From Fidelibacterota bacterium MT.SAG.2 (lineage in GTDB: Bacteria > Fidelibacterota > SORT01), in NCBI GenBank assembly GCA_004402915.1, contig SORU01000001.1:24908-88907 (forward strand): DNA of 64,000 bases. Reading direction: 5' to 3'. Each line of letters starts with the position of its first letter. The first letter of the stretch is position 1. The notes under the pieces are model-generated. The model worked only from the letters and a program-made list of their open reading frames with translations. It made no database searches and was not told the DNA's origin. Both the position numbers and the translations under genes were made by a program. Positions 42,029-51,157 of this stretch are shown one piece after another.

Positions 42029-43591
42029 ATGATAGATAAAAAATATAAAATGAAACGAGTTTTACTTCTCGCAGCGCTGGCTATGGTGACACTCTCCTGT
42101 GATGACAGCATTGTGGATGTTCTAAAAGAAAACAAAGCTCCCGTAGTTTCTGTTTTTCTGTCGGCAGACTCGGTTGAATCGCTCAACAGAACTTCGAGCA
42201 ATCAGATATTGTATTGGGACGGAAAAGACCCTGATGGATTGGTTGTCGGGTTTTATTACACTTTTGGAAATACAGATAATCCTTCTAATTGGGTTTTTCT
42301 TGATGATTCGACAGCTGAAGGACCTGAGTTAATGAATAGCGACAGCGCCAATTGGCGGTTCACGACAGCCCGATCCGACACGTTTTCATTGGAGATACTT
42401 ACAGACACAGTCACCTACACATTCAGCGTTCTTGCAGTTGATGATCAAAATAAATTGAGCGATGAACCGGCGAGTATAAAACTGCCGATCAAAAATTCCA
42501 GACCGGAGCTCTTCTTCTTAAACGAAGTAGATTTTTCAAGCTCGACGGTGAAGATCCCGGACAGAACCTTTACAATCGCTTCATTCGCATGGGTTGTCAC
42601 GGACCTGGACGGCGAAGATACCATAGACAAATTTCAATATGCTATAACCGACAGTGGATCTACGGCTGATACAATATGGGTCGACATTAGTCCGACTAAA
42701 AGATCGATAATACTATCGGGTACACAATATGAAACCGATGCGGATGTGACATTCGATGACAGGATGACTGAGGGTCTTCACGCTTTCCACCTACGTGCTG
42801 TAGATGTTGCCGGCGCCGCGAGCGATACCAAAAGACTTCCGGAAGATGAGGAAGAATATTGGTACGTCGAAGAGCCTGCGAGAGACATACTGCTCGTTGA
42901 TGATTGGGCTACAAACTCGTCTGACGGAAGAGCGCTTTATACGCAAATATTGGACTCTCTGCGCAGCATAAAGGCGGGAAGAGAATATTCGATCTTAAAC
43001 CTCAAGCCTCAAAATTCAGAATATTTACTCTCTAAATCCGCGTTGAGGGAGACGATAAAACTATTTAAAGCGGTCATTTGGTATTCGGATGTCAATCCGA
43101 AATTAGATGAAGCATCTGTAGCGCTCGGTGATTACAGTAAAAATGGCGGGAAAGTTATATTCTCCACCCTGTTCTCTCAATTCGGAAGCAACAGGGGTGA
43201 CCCGCTTGAATTCACGCCTGTAGACAGTTTTGATGTTATAAGGGACACTACTTCAAATGCACGGGAAGTGGGATTAATATTTCGAAGCTGGAATGTTGCT
43301 GTTTGGCCTGATACATTGATTACCGCTGAATTTCCGGATACTTTGCTTCCCGATTTTGCCCAATTTGCATCAATAATTCCGTCACCGAAAATGCTTGTAC
43401 CAAAATCCTCTTCACGGGTCTTATACCGGTATCAGGCATTACCACGGAGATATGCCGGAATGCCGGCTGTGATTGTTGAGGATGCTAATAAGTCGTTCAT
43501 TCTCTGCAGCATTCCGCTGCACTATTTTAACGGCGGTAAGAACTTAGGTAAATTGATAGATCTCTTTCTAACAACAGAGTTTGGATTGTAG
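42029..43591 (+). CDS. hypothetical lipoprotein (Ig-like N-terminal repeats, alpha/beta C-terminal part)
   Basis: Lipobox VTLSCDDS. 520 aa. Stop is 10 nt before the TBDR start. The true start is probably the MKRVLLL Met at 42050. Confidence 0.45.
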   Translation: MIDKKYKMKRVLLLAALAMVTLSCDDSIVDVLKENKAPVVSVFLSADSVESLNRTSSNQILYWDGKDPDGLVVGFYYTFGNTDNPSNWVFLDDSTAEGPELMNSDSANWRFTTARSDTFSLEILTDTVTYTFSVLAVDDQNKLSDEPASIKLPIKNSRPELFFLNEVDFSSSTVKIPDRTFTIASFAWVVTDLDGEDTIDKFQYAITDSGSTADTIWVDISPTKRSIILSGTQYETDADVTFDDRMTEGLHAFHLRAVDVAGAASDTKRLPEDEEEYWYVEEPARDILLVDDWATNSSDGRALYTQILDSLRSIKAGREYSILNLKPQNSEYLLSKSALRETIKLFKAVIWYSDVNPKLDEASVALGDYSKNGGKVIFSTLFSQFGSNRGDPLEFTPVDSFDVIRDTTSNAREVGLIFRSWNVAVWPDTLITAEFPDTLLPDFAQFASIIPSPKMLVPKSSSRVLYRYQALPRRYAGMPAVIVEDANKSFILCSIPLHYFNGGKNLGKLIDLFLTTEFGL

Positions 43592-43600
43592 GATCAGGGA

Positions 43601-48830: not shown

Positions 48831-48835
48831 CGTCA

Positions 48836-51157
48836 ATGCGGATAACTCTTATTGCCTCAGTTCTCCTGCTGAATGCAGGAATTTCCTTATCGCAAGTCCG
48901 TCCGATTTCCGACCTGCACCAAAATAATTCTTCCGGCGTTCCGACCCTCTTGAACAACGTTGTTCAAGTGGAGGGAATAGTAACGGTCTCCGACCAATTT
49001 ACCGACCTTTCGTTCGTACAGGACAGCAGCGGCGGAGTTGGAGTTTTTGATTCAGCATTTGTGAACAGCGTACAAATCGGAGATACACTTATTATTACAG
49101 GTCAGGTGGCACAATTCAACGGTTTAACGCGACTCATTAATGTCACGATAGATAGTGTTGTTGGTGTCGGTGGAGCTCCTGAGTATTTGGTTATTAGGGC
49201 AGCAGACATTGAAGGCGAAGGGAACGGTGGTGTAGAAAATTTAGAGGGTAGACTTATCAGGTTGAACGGCGCGTCATTGAGTGATCCGGATCGTAATTGG
49301 CCTCCGGGCGGCAGAGAAACAGCAAGTGACGGCACCGGTTCTTTCACTATATATAGTAAAAGGAATACGGAAATTCCTTTTACCCCCAAACCAAGGGGAA
49401 GTTTTGATATTATAGGAGTAATCAGCCAACTCGACATAAATTCTCCATTCACTTCAGGCTATGAGGTAATTCCGAGGTTCTTGAGTGATATTATTGAAAG
49501 AGATGCTCCCGTATTCATATCACCATTGACGATAGTAAGTTTTGGCAGTACATGGGTTGATGTCAGATGGGCTACGGAAGATTCCTCTTTCGGGAGCGTT
49601 TCGTTTGAAAGTGAGAGCGGTAACTCCGTCGGTGTGCAGGAAACCGAGCTGACGGACGACGGCGAGCACGATTTTAGGGTCGACAGTCTGACAGCTTCAA
49701 CATTCTATCATATTCGCGCGAATGCATGGCTCAGAGCTGATACTACGCGTTCTGCGGAAGTTTTCTTTTTAACAAGCAGCCCCCCGGAATCTTCAGGTGA
49801 GATAAAAGTATTTTTTAATAAGAAGGTGGATACCACTTATGCGATTCCCGGAAACAAGGCGATAGGGAATGCAAGTTACAGGTTCATTATACTCAATAGA
49901 ATAAACAGTGCCGAATATACGATAGATTTAGCTCTTTACAGCTTATCACTTGATATAATTTCCGATGCATTAATAGCAGCCAAGGATAGAGGAGTGGTGA
50001 TACGATTTGTTTATGAAGACAGAACCACCCAAAGTGCAGTTCAATCGCTGATAGATGAGGGTATTCAGGTGATAAAAGATAATTTCGGAACGAACGACGG
50101 GAATGGGTTAATGCACAATAAGTTCATTATCTTTGACGGCAGGAGCGATTCTTCCGCTTCAAACGATTGGGTACTGACCGGTTCTGCCAATTGGACGGCA
50201 AGAGGTATTGATGTAAATATGCAAAATCTCATTCTTATTCAAGACCAAGCCTTGGCACGAGTCTATACACGGGAGTTCAACGAGATGTGGGGAAGCGCAT
50301 CGGACGTTGCCAATGCAGACAGCTCCAAATTCAGCTCACACAAGAGCAATAATATCCCTCATCTGTTGAATATCGGCGGCAGACGAGTTGAAGTATACAT
50401 GAGTCCAACTGATGGTGTCACGAGTCAGATAAGAAATAAGATCGCCGCTGCAAGAGAGTCATTATATTTTTGTATCCTGGCGTATACGAGGGATGACATT
50501 GCGGGCACGATGAGGGGGAGAATCGATAATCTGCCCGGTTTTCATCTAAGGGGCATTTTTGACCATTCGATGGATCCCAATGTAAGTGTTTATCCTGATA
50601 TGGTAAACTGGGGAGTAGATGTTCATCTCGATGATGAATCCGGTACTCTGCATCATAAATATATGGTTATCGATGGATTTGGTACAGCCGGAAATCCGGT
50701 GGTCATCACAGGCTCACATAATTGGTCAACGGCTGCTGAGACAAGGAACAACGAAAATACAATTATAATATACGATAGTCTTATAGCTAATTTATATGTT
50801 CAGGAGTTCGCAGAACGTTACAGACAGGCAAGCGGCGACAGTCTCCCGATACCGGTTATGGTGTCTGTCACCGATGAAGATAATTCTCTCCCGACAGAGT
50901 TCACCCTTTCGCAGAACTATCCGAATCCATTTAATCCGGTTACCACCGTTATCTATTCACTTTCTATCTCGGGATTTGTGAACCTTTCGATCTATAATAT
51001 TAGAGGTGAGTTAGTCTCGACAGTAGTTAATGAGTTTCAGAAACCCGGAGAATATAGAACCAAATGGAATGCAGACAACGTCGCTTCAGGAATCTATTTT
51101 TACCGGTTGCAAATCGGCAGCGCTTCAGTCAGCAAGAAGATGCTGTTATTGAAGTAG
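48836..51157 (+). CDS. phospholipase-D-superfamily (two HKD motifs) secreted protein with T9SS type-A C-terminal sorting domain
   Basis: Signal ISLS|QVRP. HKD motifs HNKFIIFDG...GSANWT and HHKYMVIDG...GSHNWSTAAETRNNEN. C-terminal domain LSQNYPNPFNPVTTVIYSL...GIYFYRLQIGSASVSKKMLLLK. Confidence 0.7.
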   Translation: MRITLIASVLLLNAGISLSQVRPISDLHQNNSSGVPTLLNNVVQVEGIVTVSDQFTDLSFVQDSSGGVGVFDSAFVNSVQIGDTLIITGQVAQFNGLTRLINVTIDSVVGVGGAPEYLVIRAADIEGEGNGGVENLEGRLIRLNGASLSDPDRNWPPGGRETASDGTGSFTIYSKRNTEIPFTPKPRGSFDIIGVISQLDINSPFTSGYEVIPRFLSDIIERDAPVFISPLTIVSFGSTWVDVRWATEDSSFGSVSFESESGNSVGVQETELTDDGEHDFRVDSLTASTFYHIRANAWLRADTTRSAEVFFLTSSPPESSGEIKVFFNKKVDTTYAIPGNKAIGNASYRFIILNRINSAEYTIDLALYSLSLDIISDALIAAKDRGVVIRFVYEDRTTQSAVQSLIDEGIQVIKDNFGTNDGNGLMHNKFIIFDGRSDSSASNDWVLTGSANWTARGIDVNMQNLILIQDQALARVYTREFNEMWGSASDVANADSSKFSSHKSNNIPHLLNIGGRRVEVYMSPTDGVTSQIRNKIAAARESLYFCILAYTRDDIAGTMRGRIDNLPGFHLRGIFDHSMDPNVSVYPDMVNWGVDVHLDDESGTLHHKYMVIDGFGTAGNPVVITGSHNWSTAAETRNNENTIIIYDSLIANLYVQEFAERYRQASGDSLPIPVMVSVTDEDNSLPTEFTLSQNYPNPFNPVTTVIYSLSISGFVNLSIYNIRGELVSTVVNEFQKPGEYRTKWNADNVASGIYFYRLQIGSASVSKKMLLLK

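What the first reader, a model, noticed from the sequence alone, without database searches (positions are those of the whole stretch)
42029..51157. Candidate undescribed surface module: lipoprotein, CarbopepD-type TonB-dependent receptor, PorV-like barrel, NHL-repeat lipoprotein, PLD-family T9SS cargo
Five same-strand genes with gaps of -11 to +10 nt form an apparent operon. A TonB-dependent receptor (normally partnered with SusD-like or DUF4249 lipoproteins) is here followed, with overlapping start and stop, by a PorV/PorQ-family barrel. Next come an NHL-repeat lipoprotein and a two-HKD phospholipase-D-superfamily enzyme exported by the T9SS. This layout fits a cell-surface complex. The PLD-family enzyme (phospholipase or nuclease) would be anchored or positioned via PorV next to an active-uptake channel, for example to degrade extracellular DNA or phospholipid and import the products. 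I do not recognise this combination as a described locus type.
Basis: inference. Interest (0 to 1): 0.7.

Follow-up and report, generated by a model that had tools for sequence, protein, structure and literature searches.

The report
Conserved TonB receptor–PorV-like surface gene cluster
The five genes are real and belong to an unnamed six-gene outer-membrane cluster, conserved across several little-studied bacterial phyla, that pairs an energy-driven import channel with a secretion-system anchor protein and often sits next to secreted nuclease genes.

Summary
All five ORFs sit at the stated coordinates with the stated domains: lipoprotein, TonB-dependent receptor (TBDR) with plug, PorV/PorQ-family barrel, NHL lipoprotein, and a two-HKD PLD enzyme with a T9SS C-terminal domain (CTD).

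The boundaries differ from the finding.
- Two upstream genes belong to the unit: 37638-39881 (747 aa) and 39927-41960 (677 aa, T9SS CTD).
- The conserved core is six collinear genes, 37638-48830.
- At least 444 species-level genomes encode the lipoprotein. Among the 80 loci examined, labelled KSB1, Calditrichota, Marinimicrobia, Ignavibacteria, Fermentibacteria and Kapaibacteria, 35 of 47 full-length loci are complete and collinear.
- The four genes from lipoprotein to NHL are separated by a median of 0-3 nt.
- Every homologue carries only a generic name or 'hypothetical'. No paper describing the cluster was found.

The PLD gene is a recurrent accessory, not core.
- It follows the NHL gene in 6 of about 80 module loci.
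- 26 of 55 PLD-homologue loci have the module directly upstream.
- It resembles Nuc/NucT/Zucchini-type nucleases.
- Other lineages place T9SS-secreted EEP nuclease-like genes at the same end.

My best reading is a SusD-independent, TonB-powered surface capture and import complex. Its T9SS-exported binding proteins would be held by the dedicated PorV-like barrel, and the likeliest substrate is extracellular nucleic acid. A role as a T9SS accessory, related to PorF, is not excluded.

The parts
37555..37583 (+). Sigma-70-like promoter match (TTGACA-17-TAGATT) in the 126-nt gap upstream of the first gene
   Evidence: 10 of 12 matches; sequence. The number of such matches in the region is no higher than in shuffles, so this is only a positional hint.
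37638..39881 (+). g747: secreted 747-aa protein. It has an N-terminal galactose-mutarotase-like beta-supersandwich, Asp-rich loops, an FN3-like domain and a divergent, highly conserved T9SS-type C-terminal domain. First core gene.
39927..41960 (+). g677: T9SS cargo-type surface protein. It has an OB-fold-like module, an Ig/CBM56-like beta-sandwich, a second OB-like region as found at the N-termini of extracellular nucleases, and a type-A CTD. Second core gene.
   Evidence: TIGR04183 38.9 bits (cutoff 23) and an ExeM/NucH N-terminal region hit at E 7.7e-9. The profile matches PDB 9sf8 (N-terminus of an EEP-domain protein), PPAD Ig domain and PorU CTD. tRNA_anti-codon OB in 9 of 23 orthologues and CBM_56 in 7 of 23. 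It shares an OB-like module (30% identity, E 0.002) and the CTD (51% identity) with the PLD. Present in 60 of 67 loci.
42029..43591 (+). lipo520: lipoprotein with two Ig/FN3-like domains and a C-terminal non-catalytic GATase1-like (ThuA/GldG-IFT52-like) domain. Third core gene.
43601..46447 (+). TonB-dependent receptor: CarboxypepD_reg N-terminal domain, TonB-box-like QEIVVIGKKAL, plug and 22-strand-type barrel. Fourth core gene.
   Evidence: Plug motifs and the TonB-box region are conserved in 64 orthologues. About 52% identity across phyla, present in 67 of 69 loci. Below the cutoff for SusC/RagA (85.5 vs 368).
46437..47429 (+). PorV/PorQ-family outer-membrane barrel that overlaps the TBDR stop by 11 nt. 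Fifth core gene.
   Evidence: NF033709 221.7 bits (cutoff 90). Below the equivalog cutoffs for PorV (88/250), PorQ (94.7/220) and PorV2 (73/325). PDB PorV 6h3i_F E 4.7e-7. Present in 63 of 65 loci, with a median 3-nt gap after the TBDR.
47430..48830 (+). NHL-repeat beta-propeller lipoprotein. Sixth core gene.
   Evidence: PF01436 41.8 bits. NHL propeller matches in the PDB. Lipobox Cys in orthologues. Detected in 50 of 59 loci, and an ORF of similar size fills the slot in the five such loci I inspected (L005, L009, L017, L024, L077).
48836..51157 (+). Accessory seventh gene: T9SS-secreted two-HKD PLD-superfamily enzyme of the Nuc/NucT/Zucchini type, with an N-terminal OB-like (DUF5689/ExeM-N-like) module and an FN3-like domain.
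   Evidence: Orthologues directly follow the NHL gene in L060, L064, L070, L071, L082, L085 and L167. 26 of 55 PLD-homologue loci have the module upstream. The L070 homologue carries a lamin-tail domain.

Best explanation
The finding is the 3' part of a conserved six-gene outer-membrane module (window 37638-48830). In this genome a secreted nuclease-type PLD (48836-51157) is added as a seventh gene.

Proposed mechanism:
1. The TonB-dependent receptor is the import channel, energised by TonB.
2. The two lipoproteins (lipo520 and NHL) sit with it at the cell surface.
3. The T9SS, whose SprA translocon is encoded in the same window, exports g747, g677 and the PLD.
4. The dedicated PorV/PorQ-family barrel, translationally coupled to the receptor, keeps g747 and possibly g677 on the surface by binding their C-terminal domains. 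This would parallel how PorV holds PorU and PorQ holds PorZ.
5. These proteins take the place of the SusD-like and surface glycan-binding proteins of Bacteroidota. They capture a polymer, accessory enzymes cut it, and fragments enter through the receptor.
6. The likeliest substrate is extracellular nucleic acid, or another phosphodiester-linked polymer.

Shown: gene content, domain and fold assignments, cross-phylum synteny, and recurrent adjacency of nuclease-type genes. Inferred: that a complex forms, CTD-mediated anchoring, surface exposure of the lipoproteins, and the substrate.
For: 1. The array g747-g677-lipoprotein-TBDR-PorV-like-NHL is collinear and same-strand in 35 of 47 loci with room for all six genes. 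Individual genes are present in 85-97% of loci. The loci are labelled KSB1, Calditrichota, Neomarinimicrobiota, Ignavibacteria, Fermentibacteria and Kapaibacteria.
2. In a complete Calditrichota genome the six genes are bounded by unrelated housekeeping genes. No other flanking gene recurs.
3. Median intergenic distances are 0, 3 and 0 nt for lipoprotein to TBDR to PorV-like to NHL.
4. The TBDR keeps its plug motifs and a TonB-box-like segment in 64 orthologues.
5. The barrel is a bona fide PorV/PorQ family member but is not the PorV, PorQ or PorV2 equivalog. It is therefore a dedicated paralogue.
6. g677 and the PLD carry standard type-A CTDs. g747 carries a divergent CTD that is more conserved than the rest of the protein. 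This is what I would expect of a retained, partner-binding CTD.
7. On the substrate: g677 and the PLD share an OB-like module also found at the N-termini of ExeM/NucH-type nucleases.
8. The PLD is closest to Nuc, NucT and Zucchini.
9. Some PLD homologues add a lamin-tail domain or DUF5689.
10. 26 of 55 PLD-homologue loci abut the module.
11. An unrelated nuclease-like superfamily, Exo_endo_phos with a CTD and weak ExeM/NucH and MnuA similarity, lies at the same end of the module in L100, L015, L033, L025 and L026.
12. SprA is encoded at 3503-9541, with TIGR04189 at 839 bits.
Against:
- Most module loci (about 85%) have no adjacent nuclease gene.
- The g747 N-domain is a galactose-mutarotase-like supersandwich typical of carbohydrate-active enzymes. 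Some g677 orthologues match CBM56. The substrate could therefore be a glycan.
- The unusually high conservation (TBDR about 52% and g747 about 50% identity across phyla) and the absence of a second copy among the 80 genomes sampled fit a housekeeping envelope function better than a typical fast-evolving nutrient receptor.
- Both the PLD and EEP superfamilies also contain phospholipases, so nuclease activity is inferred and not shown.
- The g747 CTD is found only by profile-profile comparison, not by an HMM built from the g677 CTDs.
Confidence: 0.45

Rival explanations
1. The module is an accessory or attachment sub-complex of the T9SS rather than a nutrient importer. The TBDR would be the counterpart of PorF (PG0534). 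The PorV/Q-like barrel and g747 would be a PorQ-PorZ-like pair. The module would serve cargo attachment or envelope biogenesis in FCB lineages outside the Bacteroidia.
For: - PorF is a TBDR-like barrel required for normal T9SS function. Its interaction partners are unknown, and its mutant phenotype resembles the porQ and porZ mutants (PMC5445135; PMC12704123).
- The g747 C-terminus weakly matches the PorZ C-terminus and is highly conserved.
- The barrel scores slightly better on the PorQ model than on the PorV model.
- Very high cross-phylum conservation fits a housekeeping role.
- SprA lies in the same window.
Against: - There is no PorU-like peptidase in the cluster.
- TBDR orthology to PorF could not be tested because no PorF sequence or model was available.
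- Recurrent adjacency of secreted nucleases is not explained by an attachment role.
- None of the 80 loci inspected carried a Bacteroidia order or genus label, and Bacteroidia is where PorF was defined.
Confidence: 0.2
2. It is a SusD-less polysaccharide-utilisation-type locus. g747 (supersandwich), g677 (CBM56-like) and the lipoproteins would bind a glycan such as a beta-glucan, which the TBDR imports. The neighbouring nucleases would be incidental.
For: - CBM_56 matches in 7 of 23 g677 orthologues.
- The GATase1-like domain of lipo520 also occurs in GH42 enzymes.
- The TBDR N-terminus resembles the SusC N-terminus.
Against: - No glycoside hydrolase, lyase or sugar-metabolism gene is conserved in or beside the cluster.
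- The only recurrent enzymes beside it are PLD- and EEP-type phosphodiesterases.
- The supersandwich fold also occurs in non-carbohydrate contexts such as YidC.
- PUL-type loci are usually variable and multi-copy, unlike this one.
Confidence: 0.15
3. The five genes 42029-51157 are the functional unit, and the PLD is the protein that the PorV-like barrel positions next to the receptor.
For: - The PLD has a standard type-A CTD, which is the kind that PorV binds.
- It is 5 nt downstream of the NHL gene.
- The same arrangement recurs in Ignavibacteria-type loci and in a related Marinimicrobia contig.
Against: - The barrel is conserved in about 85% of loci that lack any adjacent PLD.
- g747 and g677 are almost always present.
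- Half of the PLD homologues are encoded away from the module.
Confidence: 0.1
4. The adjacency is fortuitous and the genes have unrelated functions.
For: None beyond the absence of experimental data.
Against: Collinear conservation across at least six phylum-level lineages, with overlapping or abutting reading frames.
Confidence: 0.02

Closest known systems
SusC/SusD-type utilisomes (polysaccharide utilisation loci) of Bacteroidota
   Same: - A TonB-dependent receptor with a CarboxypepD_reg-type N-terminal domain.
- It is encoded in an operon with surface lipoproteins and substrate-binding or substrate-degrading proteins.
- The presumed logic is capture, cut and import.
   Different: - There is no SusD-like gene.
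- The TBDR scores far below the SusC/RagA cutoff (85.5 vs 368 bits).
- The partner proteins are a PorV/PorQ-family barrel plus T9SS-CTD proteins, not only lipoproteins.
- Only one copy was seen per genome sampled, and it is highly conserved across phyla rather than variable and multi-copy.
T9SS attachment complex PorU-PorV / PorZ-PorQ (Porphyromonas gingivalis)
   Same: - A PorV/PorQ-family barrel is encoded with proteins that carry T9SS C-terminal domains.
- One of those CTDs (g747) is unusually conserved, as I would expect for a retained, barrel-bound CTD.
   Different: - There is no C25-type sortase (PorU).
- There is no PorZ-like beta-propeller. g747 is a beta-supersandwich protein.
- The barrel is below the PorV, PorQ and PorV2 equivalog cutoffs.
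- It is coupled to a TonB-dependent receptor.
PorF (PG0534), the TonB-dependent-receptor-like T9SS component
   Same: It is a TBDR-like outer-membrane barrel functionally linked to the T9SS, and its mutant phenotype resembles the porQ and porZ mutants (PMC12704123).
   Different: - Orthology was not tested.
- PorF is about 92 kDa, against about 105 kDa here.
- None of the papers consulted mentions PorF in an operon with a PorV-like barrel.
Extracellular nucleases Nuc/NucT (PLD superfamily) and ExeM/NucH (EEP superfamily)
   Same: - The PLD has two Nuc-like HKD domains.
- It also has an N-terminal OB-like module like those of ExeM/NucH enzymes.
- Homologues carry LTD domains, and EEP-type neighbours occur in other lineages.
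   Different: - It is a fused pseudo-dimer of 773 aa with an FN3-like domain and a T9SS CTD.
- It is below the NucT equivalog cutoff (57 vs 297 bits).
- It is encoded as the last gene of a TBDR operon.
TBDR plus DUF4249 lipoprotein pairs
   Same: It is a SusD-independent TBDR and lipoprotein operon in FCB bacteria. One such pair is present in this window at 13175-16422.
   Different: The partners are different and unrelated. That pair has no PorV-like barrel and no CTD proteins.

Membership tests
TonB-dependent receptor | N-terminal plug domain | tested here: met
   PF07715 48.1 bits against a cutoff of 23.9. The IRGGR...DG...DP plug motifs are at least 90% conserved in 64 orthologues.
TonB-dependent receptor | 22-strand beta-barrel domain | tested here: met
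   PF00593 97 bits over residues 349-885.
TonB-dependent receptor | TonB box upstream of the plug | tested here: inconclusive
   A QEIVVIGKKAL segment lies between the CarboxypepD_reg domain and the plug. It is moderately to strongly conserved. It was recognised by resemblance to known TonB boxes, not by a model.
SusC/RagA (SusCD PUL) | TIGR04056 membership and an adjacent SusD-like gene | tested here: not met
   85.5 bits against a cutoff of 368.25, with only the N-terminal 215 residues matching. There is no SusD-like gene in the cluster.
PorV/PorQ family | NCBIfam NF033709 above cutoff, with PorV-like barrel sequence | tested here: met
   221.7 bits against a cutoff of 90. Pfam PorV 46.7 bits. 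PDB PorV 6h3i_F E 4.7e-7.
PorV, PorQ or PorV2 proper (equivalogs) | Score above the equivalog cutoff | tested here: not met
   PorV 88/250, PorQ 94.7/220, PorV2 73.4/325.
T9SS type-A cargo | C-terminal Por_Secre_tail domain (TIGR04183) | tested here: met
   PLD 39.6 bits and g677 38.9 bits, against a cutoff of 23.
T9SS type-A cargo (g747) | C-terminal Por_Secre_tail domain | tested here: inconclusive
   No Pfam or TIGR hit. An HMM built from the g677 CTDs finds none of the 51 orthologues. hhalign of the two profiles gives prob 91% and E 1.1e-6, with a 20-aa insertion. The model shows a terminal beta-sandwich.
T9SS-bearing organism | SprA/Sov translocon encoded | tested here: met
   Window 3503-9541, TIGR04189 838.9 bits against a cutoff of 200.
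PLD superfamily, Nuc-like nuclease branch | Two HxK(x)4D...GSxN motifs and PLDc_2 domains | tested here: met
   PLDc_2 142 bits in two stretches. The motifs are invariant in six orthologues. The best PDB matches are Zucchini/MitoPLD and Nuc 1byr.
PLD superfamily, Nuc-like nuclease branch | NucT equivalog score, and nuclease rather than phospholipase activity | tested here: not met
   NucT model 57.1 bits against a cutoff of 297, so it is not a NucT orthologue. Enzyme activity cannot be tested with these tools.
ExeM/NucH extracellular endonuclease | NF033681 above cutoff, including the EEP catalytic domain | tested here: not met
   g677 34.9 bits and PLD 23 bits against a cutoff of 300. Only the N-terminal OB-like part of the model is matched.
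NHL-repeat beta-propeller | NHL repeats | tested here: met
   PF01436 41.8 bits against a cutoff of 20. Matches to NHL propellers such as PknD in the PDB.
Bacterial lipoproteins | Signal peptide ending in a lipobox Cys | tested here: met
   lipo520 Cys24 is invariant. A lipobox-like pattern occurs in 48 of 73 lipo520 and 35 of 55 NHL orthologue ORFs under a strict pattern, and is visible in the remaining examples. Acylation itself cannot be tested.
PorF (PG0534) | Orthology to P. gingivalis PG0534 / F. johnsoniae Fjoh_0118 | not testable with these tools
   No PorF sequence, model or structure could be reached. No PorF family appears among the NCBIfam hits.

The most novel reading that the evidence does not exclude
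A phylum-spanning hybrid machine in which a T9SS PorV/PorQ-type barrel is a structural subunit of a TonB-dependent importer. T9SS-exported CTD proteins would then act as the substrate-binding 'lid' components that SusD and surface lipoproteins provide in Bacteroidia. This would be a general SusD-independent route for macromolecule uptake, probably of extracellular DNA or RNA, in KSB1, Calditrichota, Marinimicrobia, Ignavibacteria and relatives. It might also explain why a TBDR-like protein (PorF) is tied to the T9SS.
Probability: 0.3. Interest if true: 0.8.

Novelty: new variant of a known kind. Interest (0 to 1): 0.62.

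Why it matters
Marinimicrobia, KSB1, Calditrichota and Ignavibacteria are abundant in oceans, sediments and bioreactors. How they take up polymers is largely inferred by analogy with the SusCD systems of Bacteroidia, which they lack.

Three things make this cluster a concrete target:
- It is unnamed, conserved at about 50% identity across these lineages, and encoded in at least 444 species-level genomes.
- It physically links, at the gene level, two machineries that have been studied separately: TonB-dependent import and T9SS PorV-type anchoring.
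- Its recurrent association with secreted nucleases points to extracellular nucleic acid as a substrate. That is relevant to phosphorus and nitrogen cycling in oxygen-minimum zones and sediments.

It also offers a testable lead on the unexplained T9SS requirement for the TBDR-like PorF.

Tried and rejected
- Literature searches for PorV with TonB, Ignavibacteria, Marinimicrobia, KSB1 or Calditrichota, and for eDNA with TonB, T9SS and nuclease, found nothing relevant.
- Orthology to PorF could not be tested, because no sequence or model was reachable.
- Single-sequence PDB searches with g747 and the TBDR were uninformative.
- An HMM of the g677 CTDs did not detect the g747 C-terminus. Profile-profile comparison did.
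- The EEP neighbour shares only its CTD with g677.
- Clustering of all flanking ORFs found no further conserved partner.
- Genes directly downstream in most lineages are unrelated housekeeping genes.
- The window genes at 51314-54585 never co-occur with the module outside close relatives.
- No terminator-like site was found after the PLD gene, and promoter-like sites are not enriched.
- No Rfam family or tRNA was found in the window.
- The afdb50 fold library was unavailable.
- Both structure-prediction jobs went to g747 and lipo520, so g677, the TBDR and any complex were not modelled.

Full report
**Observation.** The junctions are +9, -11, 0 and +5 nt. Domain searches confirm each assignment.
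- The 948-aa protein has CarbopepD_reg_2 (66.7 bits), Plug (48.1 bits, cutoff 23.9) and TonB_dep_Rec_b-barrel (97 bits).
- The 330-aa protein is a member of the NCBIfam PorV/PorQ family (221.7 bits, cutoff 90). It is below the equivalog cutoffs for PorV, PorQ and PorV2. It matches F. johnsoniae PorV in the PDB.
- The 466-aa protein has NHL repeats.
- The 773-aa protein has two PLDc_2 domains with intact HKD motifs and a Por_Secre_tail domain.
- The 520-aa protein has no family. It has an invariant lipobox cysteine.

**The unit is larger than reported.** Homologues of the orphan lipoprotein occur in Marinimicrobia (62% identity) and, at about 35% identity, in KSB1 and Zhuqueibacterota. Their contigs show the same neighbours plus two more genes upstream: a protein of about 730 aa with no family, and a protein of about 673 aa with a T9SS C-terminal domain. 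These correspond to window 37638-39881 (g747) and 39927-41960 (g677).

A scan of one genome per species found at least 444 genomes encoding the lipoprotein. tblastn of the window proteins against 86 fetched loci gave these results:
- The array g747-g677-lipoprotein-TBDR-PorV-like-NHL is collinear and same-strand in 35 of 47 loci long enough to hold all six genes.
- Per-gene presence is 49/54, 60/67, 67/69, 63/65 and 50/59.
- In the five NHL 'misses' I inspected (L005, L009, L017, L024, L077), an ORF of the right size fills the slot.

The loci are labelled KSB1, Calditrichota, Neomarinimicrobiota, Ignavibacteria, Fermentibacteria and Kapaibacteria. Median gaps are 0, 3 and 0 nt for lipoprotein to TBDR to PorV-like to NHL, 24 nt for g747 to g677, and 101 nt between the two blocks. 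In a complete Calditrichota genome the six genes lie between ribosomal-protein genes and a phosphofructokinase gene. No other flanking gene recurs. The TBDR and g747 are about 50% identical across these lineages.

**What the unknown proteins look like.**
- That terminal domain aligns to the type-A CTD profile only by profile-profile comparison: prob 91%, E 1e-6, with a conserved 20-aa insertion. An HMM search failed. It weakly matches the PorZ C-terminus. It is more conserved than the rest of the protein.
- g677 combines OB-fold-like modules, an Ig/CBM56-like sandwich and a standard CTD. Its OB-like region matches the N-termini of ExeM/NucH-type and EEP-domain nucleases. It is also related to the N-terminal module of the PLD.
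- The g747 superfamily is large: 622 representatives at E <= 1e-30. All named homologues are 'hypothetical'.

**Status of the PLD.** Its catalytic domains are closest to NucT, Nuc (1byr) and Zucchini/MitoPLD. True orthologues directly follow the NHL gene in six Ignavibacteria-type loci and in a related Marinimicrobia contig. They are absent from the other module loci.

Starting from the PLD instead, 26 of 55 metagenomic PLD-homologue loci with enough upstream sequence have the module immediately upstream on the same strand. Longer homologues add DUF5689 or a lamin-tail domain.

Independently, genes for Exo_endo_phos-family enzymes with T9SS CTDs sit at the same end of the module. They show weak similarity to the ExeM/NucH and MnuA catalytic domains. 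One lies between NHL and PLD in L100. In L015, L033, L025 and L026 they are convergent to the module. The PLD is therefore an optional but non-random accessory, and the accessory slot repeatedly holds nuclease-type phosphodiesterases.

**Mechanism.** The window also encodes SprA, so the T9SS is present. I propose that the TBDR, which keeps a TonB-box-like segment and conserved plug motifs, is an energised importer. It would be flanked by two surface lipoproteins. The co-translated PorV/PorQ paralogue would retain g747, and possibly g677, at the surface through their CTDs, by analogy with PorV-PorU and PorQ-PorZ. These proteins would capture a polymer that accessory enzymes cleave.

The OB-like modules and the recurrent nucleases make nucleic acid the likeliest substrate. 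The supersandwich and CBM56-like elements keep a glycan possible. That a complex forms, how proteins are anchored, and what the substrate is are all inferences.

**Rivals.** The strongest rival is a T9SS accessory function.
- PorF (PG0534) is a TBDR-like protein needed for normal type IX secretion. Its partners are unknown, and its mutant phenotype resembles the porQ and porZ mutants (PMC5445135; PMC12704123).
- The extreme conservation of this module would fit a housekeeping role.
- I could not obtain a PorF sequence to test orthology.
- Against this rival, g747 is not PorZ-like beyond the CTD, there is no PorU, and the nuclease association is left unexplained.

A glycan-uptake reading lacks any conserved glycoside hydrolase.

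**Comparison and novelty.** The locus works most like a SusCD utilisome but fails membership: the SusC score is 85.5 against a cutoff of 368, and there is no SusD. It borrows the PorV/PorQ anchoring principle but is not the attachment complex. I found no description of it in the searchable literature. Public annotations only say 'PorV/PorQ family protein', 'TonB-dependent receptor' or 'hypothetical'. I rate it a new variant of a known kind, namely TBDR-centred surface acquisition loci. Its coupling to a T9SS barrel is unusual and phylum-spanning.

Noticed in passing
window 3503-9541 (+), with 9546-10460: A 2012-aa SprA/Sov T9SS translocon gene (TIGR04189, 839 bits) is followed directly by an M28 peptidase gene. 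It lies about 28 kb upstream of the module, so the organism has a T9SS.
   Followed up: partly
window 13175-15493 and 15490-16422 (+): A second, shorter TBDR (CarbopepD_reg plus Plug) overlaps a DUF4249 lipoprotein gene. This is the 'usual' SusD-independent pairing, present in the same window for comparison.
   Followed up: partly
window 54700-55939: An IS481-like insertion sequence. Its transposase ORF (54865-55956) lies between 24-nt inverted repeats that are 92% complementary, at 54700-54723 and 55916-55939. The related Marinimicrobia contig L167 goes straight from the TPR gene to uvrA. It lacks both this IS and the 528-aa gene at 52999-54585.
   Followed up: partly
window 51314-52069 and 52999-54585 (+): Two signal-peptide proteins with no family hit (251 aa and 528 aa). 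They look like outer-membrane beta-barrels from their composition and C-termini. They are not co-conserved with the module outside close relatives.
   Followed up: no
L015 16488-19536 (-), L033 16463-19549 (-), L025, L026, L100 7736-8977: Genes for T9SS-secreted Exo_endo_phos (nuclease-like) enzymes abut the module in KSB1/Calditrichota-type loci. In L015 and L033 they occur as tandem pairs, convergent to the module.
   Followed up: partly
L001 1-1186 and L003 2113-5391 (also L024 17154-20432): A barrel protein of about 1092 aa (CarboxypepD_reg plus OMP_b-brl_4, no plug hit) lies near the module in a few KSB1/Zhuqueibacterota loci. It was found in only 5 loci, so it is not core.
   Followed up: partly
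g747 family (profile of A2): The g747 profile finds 2716 representative proteins at E <= 1e-10. Many share only the C-terminal 285 aa or so (FN3-like plus divergent CTD) or only the N-terminal supersandwich. This suggests a wider family of surface proteins built on this special CTD.
   Followed up: no
window 47430-48830, NHL protein residues about 330-420: The window's NHL lipoprotein is about 90-100 aa longer than most orthologues (466 aa against about 360-380). It has a lineage-specific insertion that aligns to almost nothing in other phyla.
   Followed up: no
N-termini of lipo520 and NHL orthologues (window 42029 and 47430; loci L001-L027): The residues just after the lipobox Cys are often acidic (C-DDS, C-G-E-K, C-GG-E-K, C-S-E-N). 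This resembles the lipoprotein export signal that directs surface exposure in Bacteroidota, a resemblance I recall from memory and did not test.
   Followed up: no
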